From IMG/VR virus record IMGVR_UViG_3300020473_000017: DNA of 64,000 nt. The stretch is one strand, 5' to 3'. Below, piece by piece: positions 1-21,102 of the stretch. The stretch's first letter is position 1. Each line of letters begins with the position of its first letter. This DNA is from a virus. The notes below the pieces were generated by a model. That model ran no database searches. It had not been told where the DNA came from and saw nothing but the letters and a program-made list of their open reading frames with translations. Position numbers and translations under genes: made by a program.

Positions 1-2540
1 TGTAGGTTGGGTACCATCTCATTGAGAGTAGCAGATGAATTGTTAGATTCATATATTGCTTTAATCTTGAATACATCACTACAACCTAAAGATATCCTAG
101 CATCATCTACTCTGTATCCATATCCATCATTCTCAGCATTCTCTTGAGTTAATCCATTAACACCTGCAACTACACTCTTATTGAGTTTGAGGATCTTCAT
201 CCTTTCAGTAGTTTTTGCTTTTGCAGATCTATTAGATGCATAGACTGTAGCAATTACATCAATAGTTTGTCCATTAGTAAGACCAGTTACTGTGACAGTC
301 TGTACGTTAGCTGACGAACCACTAAATCCAGGTGCTTGGAATATATCACCTTCATTAGTACCACCAGTAACAGACATAATGAAGTCATCATTATCTGCAG
401 CATTCTTGAATACAAGTCCAGCACCAGCATCAAATGAATGGGTTGTTCCTGATACTGAACCACTAATAGTTTTTCTAAAGTATCCAGCTGGATTAACGGT
501 ATTATCCTTATTAGTATTCTTTACTGCATCAAACCCAAGCGGAGTAATAAGCTTATTCTTTTGTGCTTCCTTAATCTCAGCACGAGATCTAATTATAGAA
601 CTAGTAATAGATCCTGTAGCCATTGCAGCTGCACCAGAACCACCAGCCTTAATAACATCCATTACATAGGCATCAGTAATACCAGTAACTTTAACCTTCT
701 GTGCAACACTGTTGTTGGAGAATTCAATGATGTCTCCTACTTTTAGTTGACTTTGGAAATTAGAAAGCTGTGCTGTAATTGTAGCAGTCTGTGTAGCACC
801 ACTACTTCCAAGGTTTGAAATAATAGCAGCAGATCCAGGAAGTGCAACTCTTACATCTAATCGTGCATCAGCACAACCATTAGTACCATACTTATAAGAT
901 TTTACATCACGAAAATCGTAAACTGTAGCAGCAGAAGCACTATTAGCTAATTGTCCTAGTTGAGTTCCACTATTTGCTTTGTTTAGGTCTAAATACTCAT
1001 TCTGAGTAAAAGTACCTGTTACATCAATAAGATTTCCAAAATTAGATGCAGAACCGCCATTAGCATCAACTGCTACGTATCCAGTAGCACCTGAAGTTCT
1101 ACCTACAACAAAATCACCTATATGCCAGTTTGCATTAGATTGAGTTTCTAATTTAGTATAGAATTTTGTATCTAATATATTAACTCTATAAACTGTAGTA
1201 GCAGTATTAACAGTACCTGATTCATAAGCAGAATTAAGTACTCTAGTTCTACCAATAGGATTACCAGCAGGAGAACCTGGCGTAGTTATTATTTCATCTC
1301 TAAGTTCAATATCTTCATATATTGTAGGTAATTCAGAAGTATTAGTGAAGAAAACATAGTTACCAACATCAGTTGTAATAGACTGATTATCAGAACCTGT
1401 AAAAGTTCTTGGCTTATCAACATCCTTATATGTTGTAGATAATCTTTCTGTTCTATATCCAGAGACATATGCAGAACCTGAAGATAATTGAACAGCAATA
1501 TTAGCTTCATCTGCTGTATTGCCATCTGCAGTAGTTACACCTGCTGCATATACACCATTATTAAAACCATCATCAAGATTCTCTCTTGCATCTATAGTAA
1601 ATTTCTTAACATAATAGTCACCAGATTCTTCTTTAGTTCTAGTTGCAAGAACCTCATTAATGAATCCAAGGTCACTTCTTTCTACTTTCTTTTGAATCTT
1701 ACCAGTATTAGTTCTTAAAAGTTCAATAAAGTCAGCAGAGTTAGGATCTGTAGTTGCTTTTTTAACTAATGTAAGATTAATTTTAAATCTATCTGCACCT
1801 GGAGCAGAGAAGTTTGTACTACCAATTGCATTATCATATAGAGATGCATCTTCATCAGCAGTTATGATCTTCTCTTCTACTTTTAAACCAACTTTATATG
1901 ATGGATTAGTACCATATTGGTCTAAAATTAGAGTCTGTTCATTTACAGGAACAAAATATCCTCTAACGTAATAAACACCAGCACCAACATTAGCAGTAGA
2001 ACCCTTAGAGTTAGAATTAGAATTTAAAAGCTGTGCAAGAGGAGTTCCAGCAGCAATAGTTGTAGAAAGATATGTTATATCTGTCTCACAAGTAAGTGTT
2101 TCACCGTCGGTGAAGGTTGTTGTAATATTATCGTTTGCTTTTTGTAGATAATTTATATAAAATGTTATCTGATTCTTGGTTGATGTAGAGGAACTAATAG
2201 AAAATAGGACACGACCACGAACACCAGAGGTAGATCCTTTAATTACTAATCCATCAAGAGCAGTTCTGTATAATTCTACATCTAAATTCAAATAAGAATT
2301 ATTGATTATAACACATGCAACATCATTGTTCAGAGTAATACCACCAGGAATTACTTGAGCACCTTCTTTATATACACCCTGACCGAAAGTATCGATCTGG
2401 TTTTGCATTAAACTCTGGAGAGTTGTTAGCTCCCTTGCCTGTACAGGATATCCAGGTTTAAATAGGACTTTTAAAAAGCCCTTACTCGAATCAAAGTCGT
2501 CGTAGTAAGGAGCAATATTCAGGTTCGTGTTCTGTGCCAT
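1..2540 (-). CDS. Large VrlC-like (DUF4815-type) virion structural protein; 3' end lies beyond the left window edge
   Basis: Not in ORF track. ATG at 2540 gives MAQNTNLNIAPYYDDFDSSKGFLKVLFKPGYPVQARELTTLQSLMQNQI, the N-terminus typical of the gene following gp8 in cyanomyoviruses. Confidence 0.85.
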   Translation of the reverse strand, partial: MAQNTNLNIAPYYDDFDSSKGFLKVLFKPGYPVQARELTTLQSLMQNQIDTFGQGVYKEGAQVIPGGITLNNDVACVIINNSYLNLDVELYRTALDGLVIKGSTSGVRGRVLFSISSSTSTKNQITFYINYLQKANDNITTTFTDGETLTCETDITYLSTTIAAGTPLAQLLNSNSNSKGSTANVGAGVYYVRGYFVPVNEQTLILDQYGTNPSYKVGLKVEEKIITADEDASLYDNAIGSTNFSAPGADRFKINLTLVKKATTDPNSADFIELLRTNTGKIQKKVERSDLGFINEVLATRTKEESGDYYVKKFTIDARENLDDGFNNGVYAAGVTTADGNTADEANIAVQLSSGSAYVSGYRTERLSTTYKDVDKPRTFTGSDNQSITTDVGNYVFFTNTSELPTIYEDIELRDEIITTPGSPAGNPIGRTRVLNSAYESGTVNTATTVYRVNILDTKFYTKLETQSNANWHIGDFVVGRTSGATGYVAVDANGGSASNFGNLIDVTGTFTQNEYLDLNKANSGTQLGQLANSASAATVYDFRDVKSYKYGTNGCADARLDVRVALPGSAAIISNLGSSGATQTATITAQLSNFQSQLKVGDIIEFSNNSVAQKVKVTGITDAYVMDVIKAGGSGAAAMATGSITSSIIRSRAEIKEAQKNKLITPLGFDAVKNTNKDNTVNPAGYFRKTISGSVSGTTHSFDAGAGLVFKNAADNDDFIMSVTGGTNEGDIFQAPGFSGSSANVQTVTVTGLTNGQTIDVIATVYASNRSAKAKTTERMKILKLNKSVVAGVNGLTQENAENDGYGYRVDDARISLGCSDVFKIKAIYESNNSSATLNEMVPNL

Positions 2541-4055: not shown

Positions 4056-4075
4056 GCCTTATAAGCTTTTGTTGT

Positions 4076-4083
4076 TATTTATA
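4076..4083 (-). promoter_or_regulatory. T4-type late promoter TATAAATA
   Basis: TATTTATA on + strand, 20 nt upstream of the gp8 start. Confidence 0.75.
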
Positions 4084-7000
4084 ATGATCTCAGACGAACT
4101 TCTGGAAGAAGTGAGACGTTTCCGCTTGTGGTGCGCGAGAATGGATATTCAACTGTAAATGTATCTACAGCTGTGACAGTAACTTTATATGCTCCGTCAA
4201 ATCCATCGCCTGAAGTATGATCTAGATATATGCTCATACCTGTTGTCAGGTTATGAGCTGCAGAAGTAGTAATTGTAGATACAGTTCCTGAAGAACTATA
4301 TGTTCCTGTCTGAATGGATATTGCGAAAGCTGTAGTTCCACCGTATCCTCTACCACCTGTTGCAACTGTAAGAGTGTTAGCAGACGTGTTCTTAGAACCA
4401 TATAGAATCCTTTCACATGTCCATCCTATTACATTACCAGAACTATCTGTTGCAGGATTATAATAAGGAATTAGGACTTCTCCCTCATCAGGGAAACCTA
4501 TATTCTGACTAACATCAAAGTATATATTCTTACAAGTTAAAGTTGTATCTACAGCAGAAATACTAGAAGCCAAATATGTATTTGCTAATGCAAGAGTATT
4601 AGAGATAATTCTATCTCTTGACTTCCTCTCTATATGTACAGGATGTACAGCAAATACAGTTGGTGGTGTTAAGTATCCAGCACCACCATTTAGATTAACA
4701 ATAGAGGTTACCGTACCACTTCCAGATTGAACAACTGTCTCTGCAGAAGCACCTGTTCCACTACCACCTTGGAAATAAAGAATTGGTGGAACTTCATAAT
4801 TACTACCTCCATCTAATATACTAACTGTATCAACCTTTCCATTATTAATTGTACATTCAAAATTAGCAACGGTTGGTCGTAATCCAGTATATTCATAAGT
4901 GTCTACAGAAGTTGCACTTGATACTGTTGCTAATAGACGATCTTCACCTTCACTCTTAACCATGACTCTATCGTTAGGATCAAGAGAATTGAAAGTATTA
5001 GAAATGAATATATCTTCTGCAGATCCAACATAAATGTAAAGACTACATGTAGATCCTGCTCTTGGAGCTTCAAAGAATTCAATAATTGATCCGTTTAATT
5101 GATATGCAACTCCAGGTTCCTGGAATACACCATTAAGGAAGATCATTACGTTATTAGCTGGTTCAACAGAACTGTTATCACTCTGTAAGGAGAATGGTTC
5201 ACTATTCAACGTCATAACAAAAGTCTTTCTAGCATTATCAAAGAAAGGAGCTATGGTATCAAGTAATTGTAATTTACCAAAGTAGAATCCATAGAAGTCC
5301 ATACCACTGGTAGGTGCTTCAGTAAAGGATATTGTACTTCCTGTATATGTGTATGCTTCTGTGCTACCTTTAATCTGAAGAATACTATTCAAGAATATTA
5401 AGAAGTTATCAGATGCAGGTAATGCATAATTACTACCAGCAACTTTAGCACTGAATATCTTATCAGTTCCATCAAATGCCACAGTACCAACTTCAACTTG
5501 GAATTCTGGGTTTGATGAAGATGTTCTGGTGATTCCAGTTAGATTACCTGCTCCACCAGAAGTGGTTCCAACTGCTTGAGTAACAATTGCAGTTAAAGTA
5601 GTAATTGCAGATGCAACATCAGTACAATCATTAGTATCATAAGTTGCATTACCACTATCATTAGTAATAGTTAAATCTTTATACTGTGCTCCTTCTGTGT
5701 AATGGTTTGTTGTAACTGAGATGTTACGCATTACCTCGCGAGCAATATCTCTAGCATGATTGAATACTAATACAGTCTGATCTTCTTCACCTTGTAAGTG
5801 AACTGTACCAACATAGTATTTCGCTGCATCGTAAGTAGCATCATTACCACCAAACTCAATATTATTAGCAACAGCCTCAGTAATTAACTTAGTATCACGA
5901 ATACACTTAACAAAACTAGGAACAACGAATGTGCTATTAGTAGCCATCATTCTTCCATAAGCAGTTGTTGCAATAAAGTCTAAGTTTTCACGTATCAATC
6001 TACCAGCATCAGCAAGTTTGTCATATTCATATCCACCAGATTGTACAAGAGACCTTGTGACACTATTTGCACTGGCACTTACGAACTGATGTGCAAAACC
6101 AGTCTTAACAGACCCAGGTGTTGCATTAACAAACGTATGTGTATGATCACCACCAGACTTAATAGCATTAGTAGTTGCTTGAATGAAGGTATGAGTATAA
6201 TTACCTCCTGCTATGACGGCTGTAGCACCTGCTGATACAAAACTATGAGCATACTGATGAGTAATAGCAGAATCTCTATTGTTAGTATTAATCGTGATAA
6301 CGCCAGTTTGCTTCTTGACGGTAGCGCGAGTAATAGAGTTACTAACTGCGGAGATAAACGTATGAGCTGTCGTATTAGTTGACGGTACACTGTTTAGAAC
6401 CTGTATATCGAAAGTGTTGGTTGTGACATTGTATATCTTAACCCATTGACCGCTAATTGGATCTGTAGAACGAGGATAGTTATGGAATGAAGTATGGAAG
6501 TCCTCATTACATGTAAATCTAAAGGTATCATCATCAATCTTAATTTCATCACCAGCAATGAATCCATGATTATTAATAGTTATAGTGAATACACCTGTAA
6601 GAGGATCATAAGCAGCAACAGTAGGTGTTAACTTACCTTCGGGTACAAATGTATGAGCGTGCTGTCCATTAGGTCCAGCAACACCAACATTGATATCAAA
6701 CGTATCAGTTGTAACATTTGATACAAGCATCCATTCATCATAATTAGGATCTTCTAAAGTTGGATAACTCTTAACTGTTGCATTACTATCCTTATTACAT
6801 GTGAACTTCAATGCACCTTGATTGACCTTAATATAATCACCATTAGAGAAACCATGTCCAGCAACTGTTGATGTTAGTACACCTGTACTAGGTACATATA
6901 CTGCAGCAGTTACAGCATGAGATGTATATCCAACACTCTTAATAGGAATTGGTCTATCATATGCCCAATCCTTTTTCTTCTTCAATCCATTACTAACAGC

Positions 7001-10000
7001 ACTATCAAAGGTATGTACTGTTACGTTAGTAGAAGGAATAGAATCTAATACCTGAACCTTAAAGGTTGTATCATCAGCATCCCAAATAGTTAACCATCTA
7101 CCACTAGCAGGATCAGTTGCTCTAGGATAAGCATGTGTGCCTCCACCTTGCGTACAAGTGAATACAATAGCACTATCATCAAATTTAACTTGATCACCGT
7201 TCACAAAGGCAGCTGCACCCCCTCCATGAGTAACAGTCATAATACCTGTAGCAGGATCATAATCTGCATCTGTTGGGGTATATGAAATAGTATCAGTTCT
7301 AGGATAAGACTGGTTGCTAACACCACCATTATCACAACTCATTACAATACCACCATCTGCTAATTTGATGGTATCTCCTTTTCTTTGAACACAATTATCT
7401 GAAGCAGAAACAAATGTGTGTGCTTGACCTGTTGCTCCAGTTGCAACATAGAAATTCAATTGTATTGTATCATTTGTTACAGCAAGTACTTGTAACCATG
7501 ATCTATAGGCAGGATCCGTTACTCTTGGATAACTATGATTTCCAGCACCAGCAGTACATGTGAATGTTAATGATTCTTTAGCGATTTGAACATAATCACC
7601 TTTATTGATAGTATGACCTTTAATTGTTAATGTTGCTACACCTGTAGCAGGATCATAAGCAATATCAGTAGGAGTGAATGTATCATATCCACGGAACTTA
7701 TGCCCACCAACAGTTAGATCAAGATCTCCATTAGCAAGGTTAAGAGCAGCACCTGTTGGTTGATAATTTACAATAGGTGATGTTCCAACATTAACTGTGA
7801 TTGTTGTTCCAGTTGTAGCAGTGATATATTGATTAGTCTTAGCAGCTGGATCTGTTACTCTTGGATAGTTGTGTAAAGTAGCACCCAAACTAGTTAGATT
7901 TCCACTAGCAAGAGTACCATCATTCTCCATATCACATCTAAACATCAATGAGTTAACATCAATGTTAATGCTATTTCCAACCTCAAGACTATGAGATCCA
8001 ATAGTTAATTGAAGATCTCCAGTTGTTGCAGTATAGGTAGCTGCCGTTGGAGTAAATGCAACTTCAGGTGATGCACCAACATCAACGGTAAATGTGTCTG
8101 AAGTAACAGACTCGACTCCAATTACTGCCTTGGAAGATCTATCACCTGCAGCTGGATATGAATGTCTGGAGAAGTCATCATCCATTGAGCATGTGAATGT
8201 CAATGCGTCATCATCAATACTAACAAAGCTAGTTGCATAAAGAATGCCATCTGCCAATCCAGAAACGAATGTATGAGTAGTGGTATTAGTACAAGGAGTA
8301 TCATCCAAACATTGAATATCAAATGTATCTGGATTTACTGCTCTGATTGTAATCCACTTACCGCTAATTGGATCTGTTGAACGTGGATAAGCAGTCTGTC
8401 CACCACTACCATGAGTACAACTAAAGGTTATAGCACCATCCTTAAGTTTTACTTTATCTCCTGCTTTAAATCCATGATTATTTACTTCTATTGTAACAAT
8501 ACCAGTGGTTGTATTGAATGATGCACCAGTTGCAGTATGAGATGTAGCAGCAGTCAATCCATGGTTCTCAACACTCATTGACAAAGCACCTGTAGATGCA
8601 TTGAATGTAGCTGAGGTCGGTGTCATTGCCTTCTCTACTGCCTGTCCAATATTAACTTTGAAATTATTTGTAGATACTTCAAATACATTGAGCCAGTTAC
8701 CTGCAGCAGGATCAGTAGATCTTGGATATGTGTGATTTGTAGCATATCCATCACGAGAGCACTTAAAGGTTAAACCATCAGCAGCAAACTGAACAAAATC
8801 ACCATTAGAAAGACCATGAGCAGTAGCCCAGACTTCCATTATACCAGTAGTAGCATCATAATCACAGTATGATGGTTGATACTGATAAGTTGCTAGTGAA
8901 TCAAATGTATGTGTAGTAGTATTTGTAGCAGCAGTACCATTTAATGCATTAACAGTAAACGTAGTAGAAGATATAGCATCAACTGGGACATTCTTACCAG
9001 AAATAGGATCTGAAGAACGAGGATATGAATGAACACCGCCACCCTGCGTACAAGTGAAGTTCAATGAGTTATTTGAGAACTTAACTGTAGATGTGGCAAT
9101 GCTTAAACCAGAAGCAACAGCAGATACGAATGAATGAGCATCAGTGTTTGTAGAAGGAATTGTATCCAGTACAGTTACATCAAATGTGTTAGTTGTTATG
9201 TTTGATACTTCTAACCATCTATCACTAGCATAGTCAGTATTACGTGGATAATCCTTTTGTGCAGCAGTACCAGAAGCACCACCAAACGCACAACTTAATT
9301 TAAGTGAACCATCAGCAAATTTAACCTGATCACCTGCCTTCAATCCATGTGCCACTACAGTAACTGTCATAATACCTGTAGTTGGATTATAATCAGCATC
9401 AGTTACAGTTGTAGTTGTAGGAGCAGTTAAAGTATGCTCTCCAACAGTTAATTCTAGTACACCTGTACTAGGAGTGTATGATGCGGTACTAGGTACATAT
9501 GAATTAGTTAATGGTTTTCCAATTGGACTGATTCCTAAGATATCGTTGTCTGTATATCCGTTACCTGGGTTGTTTAATACTACATTCTTAACACCACCAT
9601 CAACAACAACTATATCACCAGTAGCACCAACACCTGTTCCAATCTTATTGAATAATGGAATATTTGCATATGTTCCATCTGCATATCCTGTACCAGCAGT
9701 TAACCCATCAGAAGTGTCTCTAACAGGACTTAAATTAGTATTAACCTGTACAGTAATGGTAGTAGCAGTTTCTGCTGTAATTGCCAAGGTAGCACCAAAT
9801 GCTTCATCAGATGGTCTTGGATAAGCATGTGTACTAGCGTGATTATCAGCAGCACAAGTAAACTTAAGAGAACTATCAGCAATCTGAATAGTATCACTAG
9901 TCGTATAACTATGAGATCCAATAGTTAATTCTAAGAGACCTGTAGCAGGAGTGTATGTAGCATTTGTTACATTCTTCTGTGTGTTACTATCACTTACCAC

Positions 10001-13000
10001 AGTTACAGCATTGGTTGCTGTACCACCAACATAGGTATGAGCAGCACTACCAGACATACCAGTATCTAAAGTCTTAAGTTCATCACCAATCTGATCTAAT
10101 TGGAAGCTAGAAGTATATGATGCACGATCATAGTACATTACCAAAGCACTAGAACCTACTTTAGGTGCAGTAGAGAATGTTATAACATCACTAGCAAAGG
10201 TATAGTTATTTGGATTCTGAACAATACCATCAATTATAACTAAGAACTGTGATTTAACTGAGGTCTTAGAAATCTTAGTAGTAATTAATGTATTATCAAC
10301 TCTTGTTGTGAACTGAGTATTAACCCCATCAATACCTACTGTAAATTTATTAATAGCAGCAGTAGATCCAACATTAACAGTAAATGTATCATTAGTAGTT
10401 GCTGTAATATCTAATATCTTTCCACCATGTCCTATTGGATCTGTTGATCTTGGATATGTGTGGTTAGTTGCATTGTTATCCATTAGACAAGTTAATGTCA
10501 ATGCATCATCAGCAATAGAGATCTTATTATTAGTATTCAACCCATGTCCAGCACTATGAATCACTAAATTACCATCTGCAGGAGTATATACAACATTTGT
10601 TGGGTTAAAGAAACTTCCGTTATTTGCTACAATACCATCTGTATTACAAGAAACAAATGTATGTGTACCTACGCTAAGTGAGGATAGTACAACTGTACTA
10701 CCTCCAAGAGAAGATTTCAAAGATATTGTATTAGCATCAATAACATCAACGTAATATACGGTTCCTGTTGTTAATCCACCAATATCACCTCTAAAGGTAA
10801 CAGTTTGATTCTCAACCAATCCATGATTAGTTAATGTAATTCTATTATTACTTAAGTCAACTACACTAGAAGATGCTCCATCAAAGCTAATATCTCTAGA
10901 TGTAATATCATCAACCTTATATGAGACACAAGTTAAGATTTTCTGAATATCTAACAACTGTCTACCGAATATTTGAACCTCTGTGGGAACAGCTGCTGTA
11001 TAATCTGGTTTACCTAGAGCAAAGTTATTAATGGTTGCCAACTTACCAGTATTCTTAGCAGATGGTTTTGGTGTTACATATGTAAGACCATTAAAGGTTG
11101 CACTAATACTATTACTACCAGGAACCCACCAATCTGTTGAACTAGTGGTAAGTAAATCAAGAGTAGGTTTACCTCTATAAGATTTCTTAGATGCTTGTGA
11201 TAATATTTGTGTACCAACAACTTTAAATCCTGCAGGGTGAGCAGCAAATTTAAGTGGATTCTTCCAATCTCTAATATTAATAGGTGAAGATATCTCATAT
11301 GAGAATTCTTGGAACCTATTACTATCATATAATCTCTGTTCGTTAATATCTAAGAAACCAGTAGTACGTTCCCATTGAGAAGAAGATATACTAATTGGAG
11401 AAACTTCAAATACAGCATCTGCTCTATCAAATGCATGAATCGAACCAAATGATGAAGATTCTTCACCAAATATAGGTTCACCAACTTTAAACTCACCTTC
11501 ACTAATTTCTACACTAACAACACGTCCTGCTGGATCCCAATTCTTAACATATCCAAATGCAGTATATGATGCTGTAGATGCACCCTGATAAACTCTTTCT
11601 CCAACTAAGAAAGTTGCAGGTCTCATATATGCAGTAATAACATCACCAAGATCAGTAGTATCTAATGTGAAGGTTGTTAATCCATTAGCATCTCCAACTG
11701 GAGCAGAAGTAAATGTAATTGTTGTTGGAGTATTAGCAATTGCATTTGCCTCAGATGTTGCTAATTTAACTTGATTATTTGCCAATCCATTTGAACCATT
11801 AGCAGCAACAACATAATATGTTGTATTAATTGCCAATGGAGCTGGGAAAGTACCAACTACCTCATTTAAGGTTACTGCAGTACCTGTTGGCATCTTTGTA
11901 TTATATGGGAAGTTTAAAGTACTATTAGACATTAATGCAACCCAATTATGAGTTACTCTTGCATTTACGACTGGAGCAGATAAGAATCCTCTACCTCCAT
12001 TCCTAACCTCTACCGATTGTATAACTTCATTCTCAACAATCGCTTCTAATTGATAAAGTGACCCACTTCCACCAGTAAGAACAATTGTTGGTTGTGATAC
12101 AAAATTCTGACCGCCATTAGTAACATCAAGGTAATCAATAACTTGAGTTCTTGTTAATTGAAGATTATAGGTTGTATTTAACTCTGGTTTTAGAGTTCTA
12201 TCATGACTATAGTTAAATGTAATATTATCTCCACCAATCTTTAATATCTTACCTAAATCAGAAGATTTAAGTAATAAAGAAGCACCTTTTCCTGTTTTCT
12301 GTGTAATATTAACTACAGGAGCATTCTGATATAATGTTCCTCCATCTTCAATATTAATAGAAGAAACACCTTCATTTACAATACTTGAATTAAACTTAGC
12401 GTTGATTCCACTACCACCACTAACATCTACATTAGGTGCTGATAGATAACCAGATCCAGTGTTAGTTACTGTAATAGCATCAATAGATGCATTTAACACA
12501 CAATTGGTAATTGCTGGATCAAGATGTGTCAGTTTATCAACTGTCACAGTAGCATCATGAGTAACATCAGTACCACCCATTGATGCACCAGAAATTGTAA
12601 TAACATCACCTAGTGCATATGTACTACCACCATCAGTAACAGTAATACTTTCAATAGTTCCTGCACCATTAACAATTACTGTAAACTCAACATTAGTTCC
12701 TCCAGTAGGAGCAACACTCTTTTGAGCAACACCAGTATATGTTCCAGTTGTATAATTGGTACTAGACTGTGTAGTAATTGATACAGTGTTTACTAGTCCA
12801 TATGTGGGATCATCAAGATCAATAGTAGGAGCAGCTCTGTAATTAGATCCTGCTGCAATAATACTAACAGATTCTAATTTACCAACATTTGGACCTGAGC
12901 TGGGAATAACGGCCTGGACGTTAGCATGTATTCCACCTACAGTTGTAACCTTAGCTTCAGCATCAGAACTATAAACCTTACCTCTAGCATTGTTAGATGC

Positions 13001-16000
13001 CCATGGAGTATACATGATCCACCCTCTAGTTGCTGCACTAAAGTTACCAGCTCCATCTTTTAGGTTATTTCGCAGAGGTTGAATTCTCAATATGGAAGTT
13101 GTTGGATCCCAATTAATAACTTTACCTCTAGCAGTTTGAGCACCTAGAACTGGTTCTGATATAACAATTTCATCTTTAGCAAACGAACCACTACCTAATA
13201 CTTCAGTTAGAGTTAAATCTACAAAATCTGGTAAAGTTACATATGCTACTGGAGCACCTGCAGGATTATAACCAGATCCCATGTTAGCAATAGTAACACC
13301 AGATACTGAACCAGAAATAGTAGCAACTGCGGTTGCACCAGATCCAGATCTAGTGGATCCAGTCAATTTTGGAAGAGATGAGTAGTTCCTTCCTGAATCA
13401 CCAATAGAAATTTTTCCAATACCGCCTGTTGGGTATATTGAAGTTGTAACATAATTAATGCCACTTGTATACCCACTTTCGGGTTCTTTTCCAACAATAT
13501 AGGTAAAATTAAGATCAGTTACATCTTTTACAATATTTGTGCCAGATAAAGGCTCATTCATTACTGTAAGGTAACTTCCAGCAATAGTTCCTTGAATATC
13601 GAAATAATAGAAGATTCCAGGAAGATCTGTCATCAATATAGTGATAGAAGTCTGTTGACCCGTTTGTGCATTGCTTGTTTCTGCAGATATGTTCTTATAA
13701 GTGAAAATATCGGTATTTGCGGGATCTAACGTAAATGCAAGTGTTTTTCCAACATTACTTGCATCAGAAGTGTCAAATGTGTAAGAATGCCCGTCAATCA
13801 ACTCTAACTTAGGTTCTTGGACATAAACATCAGCAGAAGTGACTGTAGCGGCAGCTGTAGACCCATGATTGCGTTTTACAGTGAATCTACGAAGAGTTTC
13901 CGTTCTAATTACTTCATAATCAGTTTTATCGTATGTAGATGGAGAAACTCCTGAAATATTAACAGTATCGCCTATTGCAACTTGATGAGCAAGACTTGTA
14001 TGACATACTGCCTCTCTTAAAGTCTCAGTTAATGTAATACTAAAACTAGACCCTCCACCGTTACCTAAGTTCTGATCACTAGCAGAAATAGTATCTCCAA
14101 CATTATATGCAGTACCAAACTCTGTAATTGTAACTGTAGTAATTGCACCACCAGAAATGACTATAGTTGCCTTTGCATTCCTACCACTATTATTAGTAGT
14201 CAATGGAACGTCAGTATAAGTTCCATTTTCATATCCAGAACCACCAGTGATAGATGACCATCCACCTTGGACTAAATTACCGTCTGTACGAGTTCTTACG
14301 TAAGTCCAAGACAATGTACCATCAGATGCTGTTCCTGATAAGTGAGTAGGAGCATTTCCTGCACCAGAATCAGATGTACCAGCTGCAGCAGCCTTATAAA
14401 CTCTATTTGCAACATAAACAAGATCATTTTTAGCATATGCAGTACTATTAGTCCAAGGACCAATTAACTTCATACTTACTAGGTCAAAATACTCAAAATG
14501 GTACTTATTATTGATAATTTTAGTATTAAGAGATCTTGTAGATGAATTATCAGCAATAGTGATAGTAAGTTGATCATCACCAACCAAATAATGTTTATCT
14601 GAAGTTGTTAAGGTTGCAGTAACAACATCATCGTCATCTACAGCATAATTGAGAGAAGAAACCGTTGTACCAGTAACTGCAGAGATTGCTGCACTAACAC
14701 CTTCTCCTCCAGAAGTACTATTATCGAATAATAGTCGATCATTGACCTTATAACCAGTACCACCACCTTCTACTAGATATTGATCGATATTAGCAGAAGA
14801 ATATTGGTTAGTAGAACTAACTGTTAACGATTCTGCAATTCCACCACGGATTACTGGATAATAACTAAAATATCCAATACCATCTTCAACATATTGAAGA
14901 ATCTCTCCAGTTTCAAGTGTAATGAGAGTTGTAGTGTCTTCTAGTGCCAAAACAAAGTCAACTTTGTTATCAAGTTGCTTTCTCTTAGTGGTTATGTTAT
15001 CAGTTCCGATATATGGTGCTTTATACCTAATTGAGTCTTCTGTAAAGTTTTTCTGAAGACCATTTCCGTCCCAGTTGACTTCATCCGCTTCTGAGTAGAA
15101 ATTTGGTCCTACAAAATACGGAAATTTCGGATTTCCGCTGATTCCATCAATTGTACAGAAATATGCATAAACTCCATCTGGAAATTCTGGAGTTACGCAG
15201 AATCTACCGTTATATTGGTCTAAACCACCTAATCCCTCTACATATTCATAATCTTCAATAAAGGTGCCCATAGGGTCAGCAAGACCACTTAGAAGAGCAT
15301 CCCTACTTGTCTTCAATCGGTAGCTTGTACCAGGTTGACTATATGCATTGTATGGATTCTGGTTTTCGGGATCCTCATACCCATAAGGTCCATATATGGG
15401 GTGTCCATCATAAGCCCATCCAATAATAGGTGAGTGTTTAGTTGGATTTAACTCTTTCCATGGTGGATTATTAGGATCTGTGTCAGGTTCAATATTATCA
15501 GCTAAGTAATATCTAAGATTCTTAGGATTGTACAAATATCCATACTCTCCACCATATATTCCACTATTCTCACCTTCCATTACTGCACCACTAGATTGGT
15601 CAGTCACTTTCCTTGCATTGAAGGATACTTGACCAACTTCTGTTGCAGTTGCTGATTCGTTAAAGGTTAATTCTGTTAATTTGGTTGTAAATGACGCACC
15701 AGTTCCTGGATATACAATACTGATGTTTGTATTACCTACAGTATATCCAATTCCTTTGTTAGTTACTACAATACCAGTAACAATGTTCTGTGATAGGTCT
15801 ACTTGAGCAAATGCAGTAGCACCAACTCCATCTCCAGTAATAACAACGTCTGGAGCACCAAAATACCCACTACCACCAAAAGTTACGATAGCACTTTCTA
15901 TCTTTCCATTCAAAATTGATGGATAGGCAACAGCACCACTACCAGAGATTAATTTGATGACTGGTTCGTAAGTATACTGTGATCCAGCAGCAGTAATAGT

Positions 16001-18487
16001 AATATCCTTAAGAGGTCCACGTACAACAGCAGTTGCAGTTGCTCCTGCACCATTACCACCAGTAATTATAATTGTTGGTAATCCAGCAGCCTGTGTATAT
16101 CCACTTCCAGAGTTGGTGACTGTGATTCCAGTAACCTTACCCTCAGTTATCTGTGCAACAGCAGTTGCCTGTGTACTACTGGATGCACCACCTCCACTAA
16201 TAGAGACACTTGGTTCACTTGTGTACCCGCCACCCCCATTTGTAACGTTAATAGAAATAACTCTACCGTCTACCTCTGCAGTTGCAGATGCAGCAAGACC
16301 TAAGTAAGTCCATTCAATAGTTCCTAGAGTTACATTACCAGATGTATGTGTTGGATACAATGTATTGCTACTTTGCCCTACATTCTTAGATTGATATCTC
16401 TTTCCACCCCATTTAACAACTATTCCACTAGCATAGTTGGTTGCAAGCTTATAATCTGGTTCAAATTCAACTGTAGGTGGGTTTTGAATATCATATCCAT
16501 CTCCACCTGAATTTTTAGTGATTGATTTTAATCCACCATACTTTCTAGTAGTACTTCCCTTATATGAGAATAAAGGAACGCCATTAGCACCAATTCCAAC
16601 TTGACCTATAGGAGTTGGAGTCTTTGTACTCTTAGTAGATGTCTGTAATGGTATTCTCTTAAGATATCTCTGGTTTCCTGGATCTATATCAGCTGCTGCG
16701 AAAGGTCCAATCTTATGTGATGGTATACCTGTACTAGCTACAATACAATCTGTTGATGACTTGTAGGTATTACTGGTATCTGCAATAAACTTGGAAACTA
16801 TAGCATTATAGGAATAGTCAGATGATCCATATGCAAATTCTCTAGCAATAAAGAATTCCTTACCTGCTAATATCGGAGCAGCAGGAGTTGACGAGAGAAC
16901 AAATTCAAAAATGTAATTATCAACAATACCAATCACATCATGTTGGTTGTTGTAGATATCTTCCTCAGCATTAAGGATTCTAACCTTATCATCTCTTCTT
17001 AATTGATGCTTTTCCTTTGTTGTAACAGTTACCCTAACAGCACCATTAGGATCGGGTGTTCCTAGGGTTGCTGTAACCCCTCTAAGTGCTCTTCTGACGT
17101 TATATACAAAAGAACTCCATATTGGGTCAAGACTATCGAAACCAGGTGCTAGAGGGGTCGTAACCTTACTTTGTGGAAGGTAATACTTACCACCTTTTGA
17201 TATATTAACACCTCTGGTTCCACCATAGACCTTTAATTGGATTTCAGACCCATCTACGTTGCTTTTACCGTAAATCTTGTATGCAGCAAAAACTTCTTGC
17301 CCTGCATCATGTGCTACATTGAGTGTACTCTCTCTAGCACGATTACAACCTAAAAATTGGTTAACCGTTTTGTCAGTATAGCTAATAATTTCATCTTCAA
17401 TTCTAAATCGACCATTTTTCTCTGGCCAACCTAATGTAGAATCAACAGTAATGATATCATCACTTAAACTACCAGTTAAATCCGCAGCAAGAATTGATTT
17501 GTAAGGAGTTACAAAAGTTCCAAGTGCATTATTGGTATCTACGTCAACTTCAAAGATTGAACCAGTCTGAGTGAATACTTCAACAACACCTTTAACGTAT
17601 ATACGTGCTGCATTGATACTTGGATCATTTGCATCAGCTTCTTGGTATAAAACTTCCCCAACAAGTTCAGTTGGATCTCCTGTTATAGCAACACAGCGAA
17701 TTACTTCCCTAGAAGTGTAATATGCGTCCGATGGTTTGAAAATTCGGTCTCTTGGATAAGAAATTTCTGATTCTACGCCAAAAATCGTTCTCAAAACAAA
17801 TTGGAACGATCTTGTAGACCCTTTAGAAGCATAAAAGTCCTTAATTCGCTTAATTACGGTACTTTCAGTAAGTCCAGAGTAAAAATTCTTCGGATAAGTG
17901 GATAAAAGCAGTTCTTTGAACTGTCCCAACATGAAAAGTGGGAACAGGTTGTTCAAATTAACAACTTTTGACCCAAGAACGTGTTCTGTGGGAGTTGTTG
18001 ATGAGAAAATGAAGTCTCCTGCCTCTCCAATTGCTTTTACAGCATCAAAACCCCTTGAACAGGTATTAAAAAGGGTTGCACCCTTACTTTGGTAGTAAAT
18101 TATCTCATCATCTATTAAAATTAGTCCCTCACTGGGAAAATCACGAGTTGAAGTAACGTCAACAGTAGTAGAAGAGGTAGTTACCGTCGAAATTGTTGTT
18201 GTTTCAGTAACTAGGTTACCATAATTGTCAAGATTATAATAATCAGCCCAATTATTGATTATATCTAAGCAATATCCCTTTAATTCTTGTGATTGATAGT
18301 ATGCTTTAACGAACTCTATGAATGTAGGAAAGCTATCCTGTATAAAACTGGCAAATTGGCCAGTAATACTATCAGATATCTGCGATCTAGATTCAGGACT
18401 TACTTCCGATGGAACTGGTGTTGTCGTGACCGTCGTAGTCGGAGTAGTCCACGACCCTACTTTCCAGGATGAATTCGATTGAGCCAT
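4079..18487 (-). CDS. gp7: Giant baseplate wedge initiator gp7 (4802 aa) with YHYH-like, CBM-like and nested beta-repeat insertions
   Basis: PTFIEFVKAYY, IKRIKDFYASKGS, DSNRFQEFSYEI...HPAGFK motifs; lies between gp6 and gp8. Confidence 0.88.
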   Translation of the reverse strand: MAQSNSSWKVGSWTTPTTTVTTTPVPSEVSPESRSQISDSITGQFASFIQDSFPTFIEFVKAYYQSQELKGYCLDIINNWADYYNLDNYGNLVTETTTISTVTTSSTTVDVTSTRDFPSEGLILIDDEIIYYQSKGATLFNTCSRGFDAVKAIGEAGDFIFSSTTPTEHVLGSKVVNLNNLFPLFMLGQFKELLLSTYPKNFYSGLTESTVIKRIKDFYASKGSTRSFQFVLRTIFGVESEISYPRDRIFKPSDAYYTSREVIRCVAITGDPTELVGEVLYQEADANDPSINAARIYVKGVVEVFTQTGSIFEVDVDTNNALGTFVTPYKSILAADLTGSLSDDIITVDSTLGWPEKNGRFRIEDEIISYTDKTVNQFLGCNRARESTLNVAHDAGQEVFAAYKIYGKSNVDGSEIQLKVYGGTRGVNISKGGKYYLPQSKVTTPLAPGFDSLDPIWSSFVYNVRRALRGVTATLGTPDPNGAVRVTVTTKEKHQLRRDDKVRILNAEEDIYNNQHDVIGIVDNYIFEFVLSSTPAAPILAGKEFFIAREFAYGSSDYSYNAIVSKFIADTSNTYKSSTDCIVASTGIPSHKIGPFAAADIDPGNQRYLKRIPLQTSTKSTKTPTPIGQVGIGANGVPLFSYKGSTTRKYGGLKSITKNSGGDGYDIQNPPTVEFEPDYKLATNYASGIVVKWGGKRYQSKNVGQSSNTLYPTHTSGNVTLGTIEWTYLGLAASATAEVDGRVISINVTNGGGGYTSEPSVSISGGGASSSTQATAVAQITEGKVTGITVTNSGSGYTQAAGLPTIIITGGNGAGATATAVVRGPLKDITITAAGSQYTYEPVIKLISGSGAVAYPSILNGKIESAIVTFGGSGYFGAPDVVITGDGVGATAFAQVDLSQNIVTGIVVTNKGIGYTVGNTNISIVYPGTGASFTTKLTELTFNESATATEVGQVSFNARKVTDQSSGAVMEGENSGIYGGEYGYLYNPKNLRYYLADNIEPDTDPNNPPWKELNPTKHSPIIGWAYDGHPIYGPYGYEDPENQNPYNAYSQPGTSYRLKTSRDALLSGLADPMGTFIEDYEYVEGLGGLDQYNGRFCVTPEFPDGVYAYFCTIDGISGNPKFPYFVGPNFYSEADEVNWDGNGLQKNFTEDSIRYKAPYIGTDNITTKRKQLDNKVDFVLALEDTTTLITLETGEILQYVEDGIGYFSYYPVIRGGIAESLTVSSTNQYSSANIDQYLVEGGGTGYKVNDRLLFDNSTSGGEGVSAAISAVTGTTVSSLNYAVDDDDVVTATLTTSDKHYLVGDDQLTITIADNSSTRSLNTKIINNKYHFEYFDLVSMKLIGPWTNSTAYAKNDLVYVANRVYKAAAAGTSDSGAGNAPTHLSGTASDGTLSWTYVRTRTDGNLVQGGWSSITGGSGYENGTYTDVPLTTNNSGRNAKATIVISGGAITTVTITEFGTAYNVGDTISASDQNLGNGGGSSFSITLTETLREAVCHTSLAHQVAIGDTVNISGVSPSTYDKTDYEVIRTETLRRFTVKRNHGSTAAATVTSADVYVQEPKLELIDGHSYTFDTSDASNVGKTLAFTLDPANTDIFTYKNISAETSNAQTGQQTSITILMTDLPGIFYYFDIQGTIAGSYLTVMNEPLSGTNIVKDVTDLNFTYIVGKEPESGYTSGINYVTTSIYPTGGIGKISIGDSGRNYSSLPKLTGSTRSGSGATAVATISGSVSGVTIANMGSGYNPAGAPVAYVTLPDFVDLTLTEVLGSGSFAKDEIVISEPVLGAQTARGKVINWDPTTSILRIQPLRNNLKDGAGNFSAATRGWIMYTPWASNNARGKVYSSDAEAKVTTVGGIHANVQAVIPSSGPNVGKLESVSIIAAGSNYRAAPTIDLDDPTYGLVNTVSITTQSSTNYTTGTYTGVAQKSVAPTGGTNVEFTVIVNGAGTIESITVTDGGSTYALGDVITISGASMGGTDVTHDATVTVDKLTHLDPAITNCVLNASIDAITVTNTGSGYLSAPNVDVSGGSGINAKFNSSIVNEGVSSINIEDGGTLYQNAPVVNITQKTGKGASLLLKSSDLGKILKIGGDNITFNYSHDRTLKPELNTTYNLQLTRTQVIDYLDVTNGGQNFVSQPTIVLTGGSGSLYQLEAIVENEVIQSVEVRNGGRGFLSAPVVNARVTHNWVALMSNSTLNFPYNTKMPTGTAVTLNEVVGTFPAPLAINTTYYVVAANGSNGLANNQVKLATSEANAIANTPTTITFTSAPVGDANGLTTFTLDTTDLGDVITAYMRPATFLVGERVYQGASTASYTAFGYVKNWDPAGRVVSVEISEGEFKVGEPIFGEESSSFGSIHAFDRADAVFEVSPISISSSQWERTTGFLDINEQRLYDSNRFQEFSYEISSPINIRDWKNPLKFAAHPAGFKVVGTQILSQASKKSYRGKPTLDLLTTSSTDWWVPGSNSISATFNGLTYVTPKPSAKNTGKLATINNFALGKPDYTAAVPTEVQIFGRQLLDIQKILTCVSYKVDDITSRDISFDGASSSVVDLSNNRITLTNHGLVENQTVTFRGDIGGLTTGTVYYVDVIDANTISLKSSLGGSTVVLSSLSVGTHTFVSCNTDGIVANNGSFFNPTNVVYTPADGNLVIHSAGHGLNTNNKISIADDALTLTCLMDNNATNHTYPRSTDPIGHGGKILDITATTNDTFTVNVGSTAAINKFTVGIDGVNTQFTTRVDNTLITTKISKTSVKSQFLVIIDGIVQNPNNYTFASDVITFSTAPKVGSSALVMYYDRASYTSSFQLDQIGDELKTLDTGMSGSAAHTYVGGTATNAVTVVSDSNTQKNVTNATYTPATGLLELTIGSHSYTTSDTIQIADSSLKFTCAADNHASTHAYPRPSDEAFGATLAITAETATTITVQVNTNLSPVRDTSDGLTAGTGYADGTYANIPLFNKIGTGVGATGDIVVVDGGVKNVVLNNPGNGYTDNDILGISPIGKPLTNSYVPSTASYTPSTGVLELTVGEHTLTAPTTTTVTDADYNPTTGIMTVTVVAHGLKAGDQVKFADGSLKLSCAFGGASGTAAQKDYPRNTDYASDRWLEVSNITTNTFDVTVLDTIPSTNTDAHSFVSAVASGLSIATSTVKFSNNSLNFTCTQGGGVHSYPRSSDPISGKNVPVDAISSTTFTVNALNGTAATNTTTHTFDSLATYQYQPSYCDYDATTGIMEVWATAHGLSNGDFVQFAADGLTFKCSRDGYATNHTYPRSTDPAAGNWLNVFEVSTNNFKVNIGQAVEKAMTPTSATFNASTGALSMSVENHGLTAATSHTATGASFNTTTGIVTIEVNNHGFKAGDKVKLKDGAITFSCTHGSGGQTAYPRSTDPISGKWITIRAVNPDTFDIQCLDDTPCTNTTTHTFVSGLADGILYATSFVSIDDDALTFTCSMDDDFSRHSYPAAGDRSSKAVIGVESVTSDTFTVDVGASPEVAFTPTAATYTATTGDLQLTIGSHSLEVGNSINIDVNSLMFRCDMENDGTLASGNLTSLGATLHNYPRVTDPAAKTNQYITATTGTTITVNVGTSPIVNYQPTGAALNLANGDLDLTVGGHKFRGYDTFTPTDIAYDPATGVATLTIKGHTINKGDYVQIAKESLTFTCTAGAGNHSYPRVTDPAYRSWLQVLAVTNDTIQLNFYVATGATGQAHTFVSASDNCVQRKGDTIKLADGGIVMSCDNGGVSNQSYPRTDTISYTPTDADYDPATGIMTVTHGGGAAAFVNGDQVKFDDSAIVFTCTQGGGTHAYPRATDPASGRWLTIWDADDTTFKVQVLDSIPSTNVTVHTFDSAVSNGLKKKKDWAYDRPIPIKSVGYTSHAVTAAVYVPSTGVLTSTVAGHGFSNGDYIKVNQGALKFTCNKDSNATVKSYPTLEDPNYDEWMLVSNVTTDTFDINVGVAGPNGQHAHTFVPEGKLTPTVAAYDPLTGVFTITINNHGFIAGDEIKIDDDTFRFTCNEDFHTSFHNYPRSTDPISGQWVKIYNVTTNTFDIQVLNSVPSTNTTAHTFISAVSNSITRATVKKQTGVITINTNNRDSAITHQYAHSFVSAGATAVIAGGNYTHTFIQATTNAIKSGGDHTHTFVNATPGSVKTGFAHQFVSASANSVTRSLVQSGGYEYDKLADAGRLIRENLDFIATTAYGRMMATNSTFVVPSFVKCIRDTKLITEAVANNIEFGGNDATYDAAKYYVGTVHLQGEEDQTVLVFNHARDIAREVMRNISVTTNHYTEGAQYKDLTITNDSGNATYDTNDCTDVASAITTLTAIVTQAVGTTSGGAGNLTGITRTSSSNPEFQVEVGTVAFDGTDKIFSAKVAGSNYALPASDNFLIFLNSILQIKGSTEAYTYTGSTISFTEAPTSGMDFYGFYFGKLQLLDTIAPFFDNARKTFVMTLNSEPFSLQSDNSSVEPANNVMIFLNGVFQEPGVAYQLNGSIIEFFEAPRAGSTCSLYIYVGSAEDIFISNTFNSLDPNDRVMVKSEGEDRLLATVSSATSVDTYEYTGLRPTVANFECTINNGKVDTVSILDGGSNYEVPPILYFQGGSGTGASAETVVQSGSGTVTSIVNLNGGAGYLTPPTVFAVHPVHIERKSRDRIISNTLALANTYLASSISAVDTTLTCKNIYFDVSQNIGFPDEGEVLIPYYNPATDSSGNVIGWTCERILYGSKNTSANTLTVATGGRGYGGTTAFAISIQTGTYSSSGTVSTITTSAAHNLTTGMSIYLDHTSGDGFDGAYKVTVTAVDTFTVEYPFSRTTSGNVSLLPEVRLRSL
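6041..10665 (-). repeat. 13 copies of a ~100-aa module (YxPxTG...HG...FTC...YPRxxDP...HTFVS) inside gp7
   Basis: 13 YP(R) cores counted in the translation; 11 of them are nested. Confidence 0.88.
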
Positions 18488-20808: not shown

Positions 20809-21102
20809 TCAGACTTGATAGAAAGTATACTTTAAGAAGAGCTCCTGACCCTTTTTAATTGGTTTAATAGTCGTCATATGATATATCTTACCCCATCCCT
20901 GATCTTCATACCCTTTAACGCAGTTAGGGTCATCATTATGATTCACAAAACCTCCTAAAGGGGTTCTCATAATTTGTTCATCTACCACAACATGTGATAT
21001 ACCAAGATAGATGTTATCTGGTATATCCTCTTTAGCAAAGATGCCTTGTCCTGCGACAGGGCTATCTTTGATGTGTAGGCACTTAGGCAATGCTTGATAC
21101 AT
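20809..21102 (-). CDS. Minimal SET-domain protein (putative lysine methyltransferase)
   Basis: SPVAGQGIFAKEDI, GGFVNHNDDPNC, IKKGQELFLKY; start taken at MYQALPK. Confidence 0.82.
   Translation of the reverse strand: MYQALPKCLHIKDSPVAGQGIFAKEDIPDNIYLGISHVVVDEQIMRTPLGGFVNHNDDPNCVKGYEDQGWGKIYHMTTIKPIKKGQELFLKYTFYQV

What the first reader, a model, noticed from the sequence alone, without database searches (positions are those of the whole stretch)
6041..10665. gp7 contains a recursively nested (Russian-doll) repeat tree with balanced closing strands
Seen: 13 copies of a ~100-aa module (opening YxPxTG-LT-H; middle GD-I-FTC-YPRxxDP-I-T-V; closing HTFVS). They are not a tandem array. M3 (from ~9500) is interrupted after its His by a complete M4, then resumes. 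M5, M6, M8 and M9 each run into the next module without a closing strand. M6 hosts M7. M9 hosts three inserts at three different loops (M10 after the His, M11 after YPR, M12 before the last strand), and M13 sits in the tail of M12. Exactly four orphan closing strands then follow in a row (HSFVS ~6245, HTFIQ ~6190, HTFVN ~6135, HQFVS ~6085), matching the four open modules like brackets. M1 and M2 (10665-9735) carry the closing strand in front, i.e. look circularly permuted. Inference: the chain runs out and back to build a branched beta-domain appendage on the baseplate, grown by repeated domain-into-loop insertion. Conserved Cys and His residues may bind metal. I know of no description of this architecture for cyanophage gp7, but could not search.
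Basis: partly seen in the sequence, partly recalled or inferred. Interest (0 to 1): 0.88.

Follow-up and report, generated by a model that had tools for sequence, protein, structure and literature searches.

The report
Self-nested beta-barrel tree in cyanophage gp7
A giant baseplate protein of a marine cyanophage is built from 13 copies of one small beta-barrel inserted into each other's loops up to six deep, and four short strands near the end of this region close four barrels that began up to 900 residues earlier.

Summary
The region lies in one 4802-aa ORF (window 4079-18487, minus strand), a gp7-type baseplate wedge protein flanked by gp6 and gp8 homologues.

The bracket reading is supported three ways.
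- The same grammar holds in 120 homologues (~2000 modules, only 557 uninterrupted). gp7 relatives with three open modules carry three trailing closers.
- AlphaFold2 folds residues 3196-4160 confidently (pLDDT 84). Structure matches span discontinuous barrels: M5 with the last closer, M6 with the third.
- Deleting M5-M7 in silico collapses only the last two closers (pLDDT 86-88 to 38-45). The first two stay folded.

The module is a beta-barrel nearest the E1 FCCH and endosialidase barrels and has no Pfam family. A His-Cys-His triad is 98-100% conserved; metal binding is untested. Circular permutation of M1 and M2 is probable but not shown structurally.

Recursive same-domain insertion is already known in cyanobacterial RNA polymerase Si3, so this is a new variant. 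I found no paper describing it. First-stage notes on overlapping windows of this genome flagged the same stretch.

The parts
4079..18487 (-). Whole gene: 4802-aa gp7-type baseplate wedge protein (P0001)
   Evidence: Single ORF. Residues 27-592 match phrog_2885 baseplate wedge subunit, E = 0. The neighbours match phrog_219 (gp6-type) and phrog_438 (gp8-type).
10628..10855 (-). M0: short variant without a B element, ending in closer D (GTHTFVS, aa 2606-2620)
   Evidence: D element 12.2 bits. The equivalent piece ending in GHTF is present in P0062 and P0112 without M1.
10361..10600 (-). M1, elements A-B-C, no closer after it
   Evidence: HMM positions 1-79, i-E 3.7e-18. Sits 9 aa after the preceding D, the typical gap of the D-ABC class.
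10052..10354 (-). Domain X, an unrelated conserved backbone domain
   Evidence: Conserved in P0005, P0062 and P0112, which lack M1.
9980..10045 (-). Closer-like element (AAHTYVGG...) directly in front of M2
   Evidence: Sequence read. It is gained together with M2 ABC as one block in P0062 and P0001 relative to P0005 and P0112.
9737..9967 (-). M2, elements A-B-C (probable circularly permuted module with the closer in front)
   Evidence: HMM positions 1-78, i-E 7.4e-21; indel unit.
9503..9715 (-). Domain Y, an unrelated conserved backbone domain
   Evidence: Alignment with orthologues.
9425..9487 (-). M3, element A (host, interrupted after its His)
   Evidence: A element 24.3 bits.
9092..9403 (-). 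M4, a complete module inserted in M3
   Evidence: HMM positions 1-100, i-E 3.1e-47.
8897..9085 (-). M3 resumed: elements B-C-D
   Evidence: HMM positions 26-90, i-E 5.1e-21.
8630..8866 (-). M5, elements A-B-C (open; closed by D4)
   Evidence: HMM positions 3-80. VIA ranges 1..953, 3..956 and 4..962 with 73-79 aligned residues. Deleting it unfolds D4.
8552..8617 (-). M6, element A
   Evidence: A element 13.5 bits.
8231..8530 (-). M7, a complete module inserted in M6
   Evidence: i-E 3.8e-48. Matches 4hiz_A at Z 7.8 over model 118..225.
8069..8224 (-). M6 resumed: elements B-C (open; closed by D3)
   Evidence: HMM positions 27-76. VIA range 89..934 with 68 aligned residues. Deleting it unfolds D3.
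7778..8047 (-). M8, elements A-B-C (open; closed by D2)
   Evidence: HMM positions 1-77. D2 stays folded when M8 is kept.
7694..7756 (-). M9, element A
   Evidence: A element 8.1 bits.
7379..7669 (-). M10, a complete module inserted in M9 after A
   Evidence: i-E 9.3e-45. Matches E1 FCCH 4p22_B at Z 8.2.
7295..7378 (-). M9, element B
   Evidence: B element 33.1 bits.
6974..7273 (-). M11, a complete module inserted in M9 after YPR
   Evidence: i-E 2.3e-43.
6917..6973 (-). M9, first strand of element C (C1)
   Evidence: hmmalign of the reassembled M9. Long strand E651-662 in the model.
6641..6910 (-). M12, inserted in the C hairpin of M9; its closer is cut short
   Evidence: HMM positions 1-90, i-E 3.8e-41. 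VIA ranges 658..866 and 376..584 suggest its last strand lies after M13.
6323..6622 (-). M13, a complete module in the tail of M12
   Evidence: i-E 9.3e-50.
6272..6322 (-). Return strand: probable tail of M12, then the second C strand of M9 (C2)
   Evidence: Strand E862-872; hmmalign.
6203..6265 (-). D1 (AHSFVSAG...), closer of M9
   Evidence: D element 9.2 bits. pLDDT 81-87 in the full model and 86-89 in the truncated model.
6152..6202 (-). D2 (THTFIQAT...), closer of M8
   Evidence: 14.7 bits. Strands are kept in the truncated model: pLDDT 83 over its first strand, falling to 63 in the next 10-residue block, which runs into the disordered stretch.
6098..6151 (-). D3 (THTFVNAT...), closer of M6
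   Evidence: 11.4 bits. pLDDT 86-88 in the full model, about 42 with no strands when M5-M7 are deleted.
6038..6097 (-). D4 (AHQFVSAS...), closer of M5
   Evidence: 15.7 bits. pLDDT 86-88 in the full model, 38-45 with no strands when M5-M7 are deleted.

Best explanation
Residues ~2600-4150 of this gp7-type baseplate wedge protein form a tree of 13 copies of one ~100-residue beta-barrel module.

How the nesting works:
- The module's first and last strands lie side by side, so a whole copy fits into a surface loop of another copy.
- Four loops accept inserts: after the His hairpin (A|B), after YPR (B|C), inside the C hairpin, and before the closing strands (C|D).
- M5, M6, M8 and M9 each host the next module at the C|D site.
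- The chain therefore runs outward through four unfinished barrels, with M7, M10, M11 and M12/M13 as side branches.
- It then returns, laying down four ~18-residue closers in reverse order: D1 to M9, D2 to M8, D3 to M6, D4 to M5.
- Each closer supplies the third member of a His-Cys-His triad.

Shown here: the segment map, the grammar across the family, and the closure order in AlphaFold2 models.

Inferred:
- The barrels can only complete from the inside out.
- The triad binds a metal or otherwise clamps the closing strand.
- The tree is a rigid peripheral baseplate appendage, possibly glycan-binding, that diversifies by gain and loss of modules.
For: Segment map with complementary HMM coordinates.

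Family grammar:
- 120 homologues hold A 1993, B 2008, C 1954 and D 1677 elements, but only 557 contiguous modules.
- After an insert closes, the host resumes with the correct next element in 212 of 282 B cases and 228 of 235 C cases.
- Some relatives parse almost completely, for example P0010 (22 closed modules, none left open, 4 missing-element errors) and P0037.
- 13 of 20 gp7-type proteins have an error-free balanced suffix of at least 6 modules ending in the trailing D run.
- Relatives with three open modules have three trailing closers; the window's clade has four and four.

Structure models:
- AlphaFold2 on 3196-4160: mean pLDDT 84.4, pTM 0.66, closers at 80-88 with the same two-strand pattern as in complete modules.
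- VIA-align gives barrel alignments of 68-79 residues spanning 1..953, 3..956, 4..962 and 89..934.
- Deleting M5-M7 leaves D1 and D2 folded and drops D3 and D4 to pLDDT 38-45 with no strands. MSA depth does not explain this.

Triad: H19, C38 and H86 are 98%, 100% and 98% conserved in 796 host modules whose closer lies a median of 309 and up to 2899 residues away, the same as in 732 leaf modules.
Against: - No coordinates or contact map were available. Strand pairing is inferred from pLDDT, DSSP and first-last alignment ranges only.
- Both models come from AlphaFold2 with MAFFT alignments whose rows do not share the query's topology. The deletion test shows the predictor's logic, not the real protein.
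- The grammar is imperfect. 492 modules stay open at the end of the parses, 70 of 282 B resumptions fail, and D elements are 16% fewer than A elements. These may be missed weak elements or real modules without a closer.
- M1 and M2 have no closer in the last-in-first-out sense.
- Nothing here tests function or metal binding.
Confidence: 0.85

Rival explanations
1. A decayed tandem array. The A-only and BC-only pieces are remnants of broken repeats, and the four HxF strands form a small beta-meander or fibre-like domain of their own.
For: The four closers repeat with a period of about 18 residues, like a short fibrous repeat. Many modules in the family lack a detectable D element.
Against: - Fragments are exactly complementary in HMM coordinates.
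- Resumption grammar holds across the family.
- Closer number tracks open-module number across clades.
- The closers lose all structure in the model when their presumed partners are deleted.
- The His of remote closers is as conserved as in local ones.
Confidence: 0.04
2. The barrels are completed in trans. The trailing closers of one gp7 copy close open modules of a neighbouring copy in the baseplate (domain swapping), or in an order other than last-in-first-out.
For: All closers are alike, so any could fit any open module. Swapped elements are reported for the recursively inserted domains of RNA polymerase Si3 (PMC11515920).
Against: - A monomer model closes all four in cis with high confidence.
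- Linkers between successive closers are only a few residues, which fits the nested geometry.
- The deletion test gives the last-in-first-out pattern.
Confidence: 0.07
3. The nesting is real, but the open modules are simply three-quarter barrels. The closers pack loosely and are not needed.
For: About a quarter of modules in the family have no detected closer. M1 and M2 have none downstream.
Against: H86 is 98% conserved in remote closers. Closers reach pLDDT 80-88 in the full model.
Confidence: 0.04

Closest known systems
Si3 insertion of cyanobacterial RNA polymerase beta' (RpoC2): recursively inserted HABAS / hybrid-motif domains
   Same: One small beta domain is inserted into copies of itself again and again, with branching. 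Eight to nine domains and a six-level nesting are reported (PMC13114784, PMC11515920). This is the same architectural principle.
   Different: - The fold family is different: hybrid motif, against a barrel here nearest FCCH and the endosialidase barrel. No RNA polymerase chain was among the top 50 structural matches, which is inconclusive.
- Si3 is one conserved insertion in an enzyme. Here it is a grammar used about 2000 times in 120 virion proteins, with hosts spanning up to about 2900 residues.
- Runs of consecutive closers and a conserved His-Cys-His triad are not described for Si3.
Beta-barrel domain of phage endosialidases (Pfam PF12195 End_beta_barrel; PDB 4hiz) and the E1 FCCH domain (PF16190; PDB 4p22)
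   Same: - Nearest folds: Z 7.8, rmsd 2.4 A, 82 aligned residues, 21% identity for 4hiz_A; Z 8.2, rmsd 2.4 A, 76 aligned for 4p22_B.
- Weak sequence hits to both Pfam families, and an Atlas neighbour cluster carrying E1_FCCH.
- From my own knowledge, both are themselves insertion domains in their proteins.
   Different: - Far below the Pfam cut-offs: 16 bits against 35 for End_beta_barrel.
- By the tool's own note, Z of about 8 can reflect only a common barrel arrangement.
- Neither family is known for the Cys/His triad, the YPR motif or self-nesting.
T4 gp7 baseplate wedge protein and cyanophage 'baseplate wedge initiator' gp7 (phrog_2885)
   Same: N-terminal homology and gp6-gp7-gp8 gene order. 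Annotated gp7 of P-HM1 and P-HM2 carry the same modules.
   Different: From my own knowledge, T4 gp7 has about 1030 residues and no such module. The nested region is an addition specific to cyanomyoviruses.

Membership tests
gp7-type baseplate wedge subunit (phrog_2885) | Sequence match to the family profile | tested here: met
   Residues 27-592 match profile positions 2-571, E = 0, 1151 bits. Further matches occur along the protein.
gp7-type baseplate wedge subunit (phrog_2885) | Position between gp6-type and gp8-type wedge genes | tested here: met
   The upstream ORF 18496-20379 matches phrog_219 (E 2e-188). The downstream ORF 2541-4055 matches phrog_438 (E 6e-167).
gp7-type baseplate wedge subunit (phrog_2885) | Presence in the virion baseplate | not testable with these tools
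   Needs virion proteomics or cryo-EM.
Pfam End_beta_barrel (PF12195) / E1_FCCH (PF16190) | Score above the Pfam gathering threshold | tested here: not met
   Best E is 0.003 for End_beta_barrel; module M4 scores 16.3 bits against its 35-bit cut-off. E1_FCCH reaches E 0.023 in one of six modules. The whole protein gives no hit.
Pfam End_beta_barrel (PF12195) / E1_FCCH (PF16190) | Same fold | tested here: inconclusive
   Z 7.8-8.2, rmsd 2.3-2.5 A, 76-82 aligned residues. The tool notes that Z under 8 may be only a common arrangement.
Recursive same-domain insertion (as in RNA polymerase Si3) | Copies of one domain interrupt copies of the same domain, over several levels | tested here: met
   Complementary HMM segments. 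Depth here is M5 > M6 > M8 > M9 > M12 > M13. Model and deletion test agree.
Recursive same-domain insertion (as in RNA polymerase Si3) | HABAS / hybrid-motif fold | tested here: inconclusive
   No RNA polymerase beta' chain is among the 50 listed matches of either model. Absence from the list does not exclude it.
Circularly permuted module (M1, M2) | The closer in front pairs with the A-B-C that follows it | not tested
   Only indirect support: the block indel of D+ABC and 35 family cases of an orphan D followed after 4-22 aa (mostly 9-12) by A-B-C.
Metal-binding site (His-Cys-His) | The three side chains converge and bind a metal | not testable with these tools
   Only conservation is shown: 98%, 100% and 99%.

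The most novel reading that the evidence does not exclude
A whole class of cyanomyovirus virion proteins (gp7, tail-fibre-like and 'structural' proteins of 3000-8000 residues) is generated by a recursive grammar of one uncatalogued, metal-clamped beta-barrel.
- Nesting would reach about nine levels.
- Single barrels would be completed by strands up to about 2900 residues away.
- Trunk and leaf subtypes of the module would be specialised.

This would be the largest and deepest case of self-insertion known. It would also be a natural system for studying folding at extreme contact order and the modular evolution of host-recognition structures.
Probability: 0.5. Interest if true: 0.85.

Novelty: new variant of a known kind. 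Interest (0 to 1): 0.72.

Why it matters
- **Annotation.** Sequence-based domain callers see only a quarter of these modules as intact. The rest look like fragments, which is probably why a domain present about 2000 times in 120 proteins has no Pfam family, and why these giant proteins are labelled 'hypothetical' or 'structural protein'. Recognising the grammar makes them interpretable.
- **Folding and design.** The outermost barrel cannot complete until a strand about 900 residues later (up to about 2900 in relatives) has been made, and the inner barrels sit inside it. That is an extreme, testable case of non-local folding order.
- **Phage biology.** Modules are gained and lost between close relatives together with matching closers. 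This is a way to remodel a baseplate appendage of abundant ocean viruses, perhaps in host recognition.

Tried and rejected
- DNA megablast of the region against the phage collection found nothing. Protein search found 289 cyanophage records, all under 60% identity.
- A profile search of PDB sequences gave only a marginal hit, peptidase U32 C-terminal barrel at E 0.28.
- NCBIfam gave no hit.
- Foldseek of the 965-residue model against PDB gave only long, meaningless alignments to multi-Ig proteins, with TM 0.05-0.08.
- Foldseek against BFVD found cyanophage relatives cut into fragments and no description of the nesting.
- My first null model for the grammar, re-dealing D elements after random C elements, was only weakly discriminating. 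I relied instead on resumption counts, balanced suffixes and clade co-variation.
- I planned a second structure job on 2540-3205, and built alignment A3 for it, to settle M1 and M2. I dropped it because the tool returns no coordinates, so strand pairing could not have been read. The job went to the deletion test instead.
- I did not run complex prediction. All closers are alike, so complementation in trans could not reveal the closure order.
- Literature searches for this architecture in cyanophages found nothing.
Full report
**The gene.** The finding lies inside one uninterrupted ORF, window 4079-18487 on the minus strand, encoding 4802 residues. The residue-to-window conversion is window = 18487 - 3*(aa - 1).
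- Its N-terminus matches the PHROG family of cyanophage baseplate wedge subunits (phrog_2885, E = 0). A YHYH domain sits at 979-1114.
- The flanking ORFs match gp6-type and gp8-type wedge families.
- tblastn finds the repeat region in 289 cyanophage records (Synechococcus, Prochlorococcus), always below 60% identity. There it is annotated as gp7, tail fibre or structural protein.
- So this is a gp7-type protein of an uncultured relative of marine T4-like cyanophages.

- Motif scans give 13 FxC...YPR middles and 12 HxF closers at the stated coordinates.
- An HMM built from the six uninterrupted copies maps the whole region into segments with complementary profile coordinates. M3 is 2-23 plus 26-90 around a full M4. 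M6 is 1-23 plus 27-76 around a full M7. M5 and M8 stop at about position 78-80.
- I rebuilt the profile from 260 non-redundant full modules of the family and cut it into four elements: A (opening hairpin with His), B (GD...FTC...YPR), C (hairpin) and D (HTFVSA... closer).
- Those four elements give the element order D ABC ABC A[ABCD]BCD ABC A[ABCD]BC ABC A[ABCD]B[ABCD] ABC ABCD DDDD.
- Reversed sequences give almost no hits at the thresholds used.
- Two weak pieces were found by eye and by hmmalign. M9's C element is split into C1 (3839-3857) and C2 (~4062-4072) around M12 and M13. M12's closer is cut short.

**The grammar is a property of the whole family.**
- A search of 5.8 billion proteins returned 573 relatives, and 120 of them were analysed.
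- They hold about 2000 of each of A, B and C and 1677 D, yet only 557 modules are contiguous.
- In a stack parse, 212 of 282 B elements and 228 of 235 C elements that follow a closer find their host in exactly the right state. Several proteins close almost completely, such as P0010 and P0037.
- Among 20 gp7-type proteins whose run of closers directly precedes the same helical domain, 13 have an error-free balanced suffix of at least six modules.
- The window's clade (P0003-P0006, 74-92% identical) keeps four closers. A second gp7 clade (P0112, P0115, P0118, P0120 and others) has three open modules and three trailing closers. Bracket number therefore co-varies with open-module number.

**Structure prediction.**
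- I aligned residues 3196-4160 with 70 homologous stretches. Element labels agreed with the query's in more than 95% of aligned positions.
- AlphaFold2 gave mean pLDDT 84.4 and pTM 0.66. All four closers are pairs of short strands at pLDDT 80-88, the same pattern as the D element of complete modules.
- Coordinates are not returned, so I used two indirect read-outs.
- First, VIA-align against 48,161 PDB chains gave single-barrel alignments of 68-79 residues whose first and last aligned residues are 1..953, 3..956, 4..962 and 89..934. The first three fit M5 A-B-C plus D4, and the last fits M6 plus D3. Ranges 658..866 fit M12 finishing after M13.
- Second, I deleted M5, M6 and M7 by starting the query at 3478, trimming the alignment rows in register. 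The model stayed good (pLDDT 83.4, pTM 0.78).
- In that truncated model D1 (89/86) and D2 (83/63) kept their strands, while D3 and D4 fell to 38-45 with no secondary structure.
- That is the last-in-first-out prediction. It is the opposite of what first-in-first-out pairing or an independent closer domain would give.
- Alignment depth does not explain it. D4 had 14 rows in the first alignment and scored 86-88; it had 33 rows in the second and collapsed.

**What the module is.**
- The best structural matches are the E1 FCCH barrel (4p22_B: Z 8.2, rmsd 2.4 A, 76 residues) and the inserted beta-barrel of phage phi92 endosialidase (4hiz_A: Z 7.8, 2.4 A, 82 residues, 21% identity). FNR-type FAD-binding and EF-Tu domain-2 barrels follow at Z 5-7.
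- Sub-threshold Pfam hits to End_beta_barrel and E1_FCCH, and an Atlas neighbour carrying E1_FCCH, agree. Some relatives carry a precomputed PF16190 hit.
- No Pfam or NCBIfam model reaches threshold.
- Only 651 of 1.84 billion cluster representatives match the profile. The family is narrow.
- His19, Cys38, the YPR motif, Asp53 and His86 are 97-100% conserved.
- The His-Cys-His triad draws on elements A, B and D. It is as conserved in 796 host modules, whose closer lies a median of 309 and up to 2899 residues away, as in 732 leaf modules.
- A metal site or a similar clamp is a reasonable inference but is untested.
- Host and leaf modules differ in consensus. For example, Trp59 is 61% in leaves and 28% in hosts.

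**M1 and M2.**
- Orthologues P0005 and P0112 lack both. P0062 has one unit.
- The unit gained between conserved domains X and Y is 'closer + A-B-C' as one block.
- Family-wide, 35 of 73 orphan closers are followed, mostly after 9-12 residues, by an A-B-C run. In 29 of those cases the run has no closer of its own.
- This favours a circularly permuted form.
- However, the closer in front of M1 belongs to a piece (M0) that exists without M1 in P0062 and P0112. M1 therefore remains ambiguous, and no structural test was possible.

**Comparison with what is known.**
- I found no paper on this architecture in cyanophages.
- The principle is not new. [quoted passage not shown] A 2026 survey cites that as a six-level recursive architecture, the extreme among 48,551 insertion events (PMC13114784).
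- The present case uses a different barrel. It occurs in virion proteins, is used on a far larger scale, and shows runs of consecutive closers.
- I therefore rate it a new variant of a known kind.
- First-stage notes on overlapping windows of the same genome described the same stretch. They are not independent evidence.

**Function.** This is inferred only. The region is probably a rigid, branched peripheral decoration of the baseplate wedge. It may bind host-surface glycans, by analogy with the endosialidase barrel (my own knowledge). It changes by gain and loss of modules together with their closers.

Noticed in passing
window 10052-10354 and 9503-9715 (aa 2712-2812, 2925-2995): Two unrelated domains, X and Y, form a conserved backbone in all gp7 orthologues compared. 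The barrel modules M0-M2 are lineage-specific additions around them. P0005 and P0006 (74% identical in the nested region) lack M0, M1 and M2 altogether.
   Followed up: partly
window 10628-10855 (aa 2545-2620): M0 is a short variant of the module with an A-like hairpin (His) and an HTFVS closer but no FTC...YPR element. A similar piece recurs earlier in the protein, around aa 2130-2230.
   Followed up: no
window ~12600-16400 (aa ~700-1950): The N-terminal half holds many copies of a different ~80-residue 'GGxGY' repeat that matches phrog_460, phrog_701 and phrog_708, plus a YHYH domain at aa 979-1114. I did not check whether these are also nested.
   Followed up: no
homologues P0009, P0018, P0028, P0054 and others: Several giant relatives carry precomputed Pfam hits to PF00502 (phycobilisome protein), PF13385 (LamG-like) or PF02210 (laminin G). 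A phycobilisome-like domain in a virion protein is odd.
   Followed up: no
family-wide: Host (interrupted) and leaf (uninterrupted) modules have different consensus residues, for example Trp59 at 28% against 61%. This suggests specialised trunk and leaf subtypes rather than random self-insertion.
   Followed up: partly
window 21102-21680 (-): A 192-aa ORF matches a 2OG-Fe(II) oxygenase PHROG (E 3e-30) just upstream of the wedge genes. Another first-stage note links it to a SET methyltransferase and a histone-tail-like peptide.
   Followed up: no
window 3-2540 (-): An 846-aa ORF that runs off the window end matches phrog_358 of unknown function (E 7e-231), directly downstream of the gp8-type gene.
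   Followed up: no
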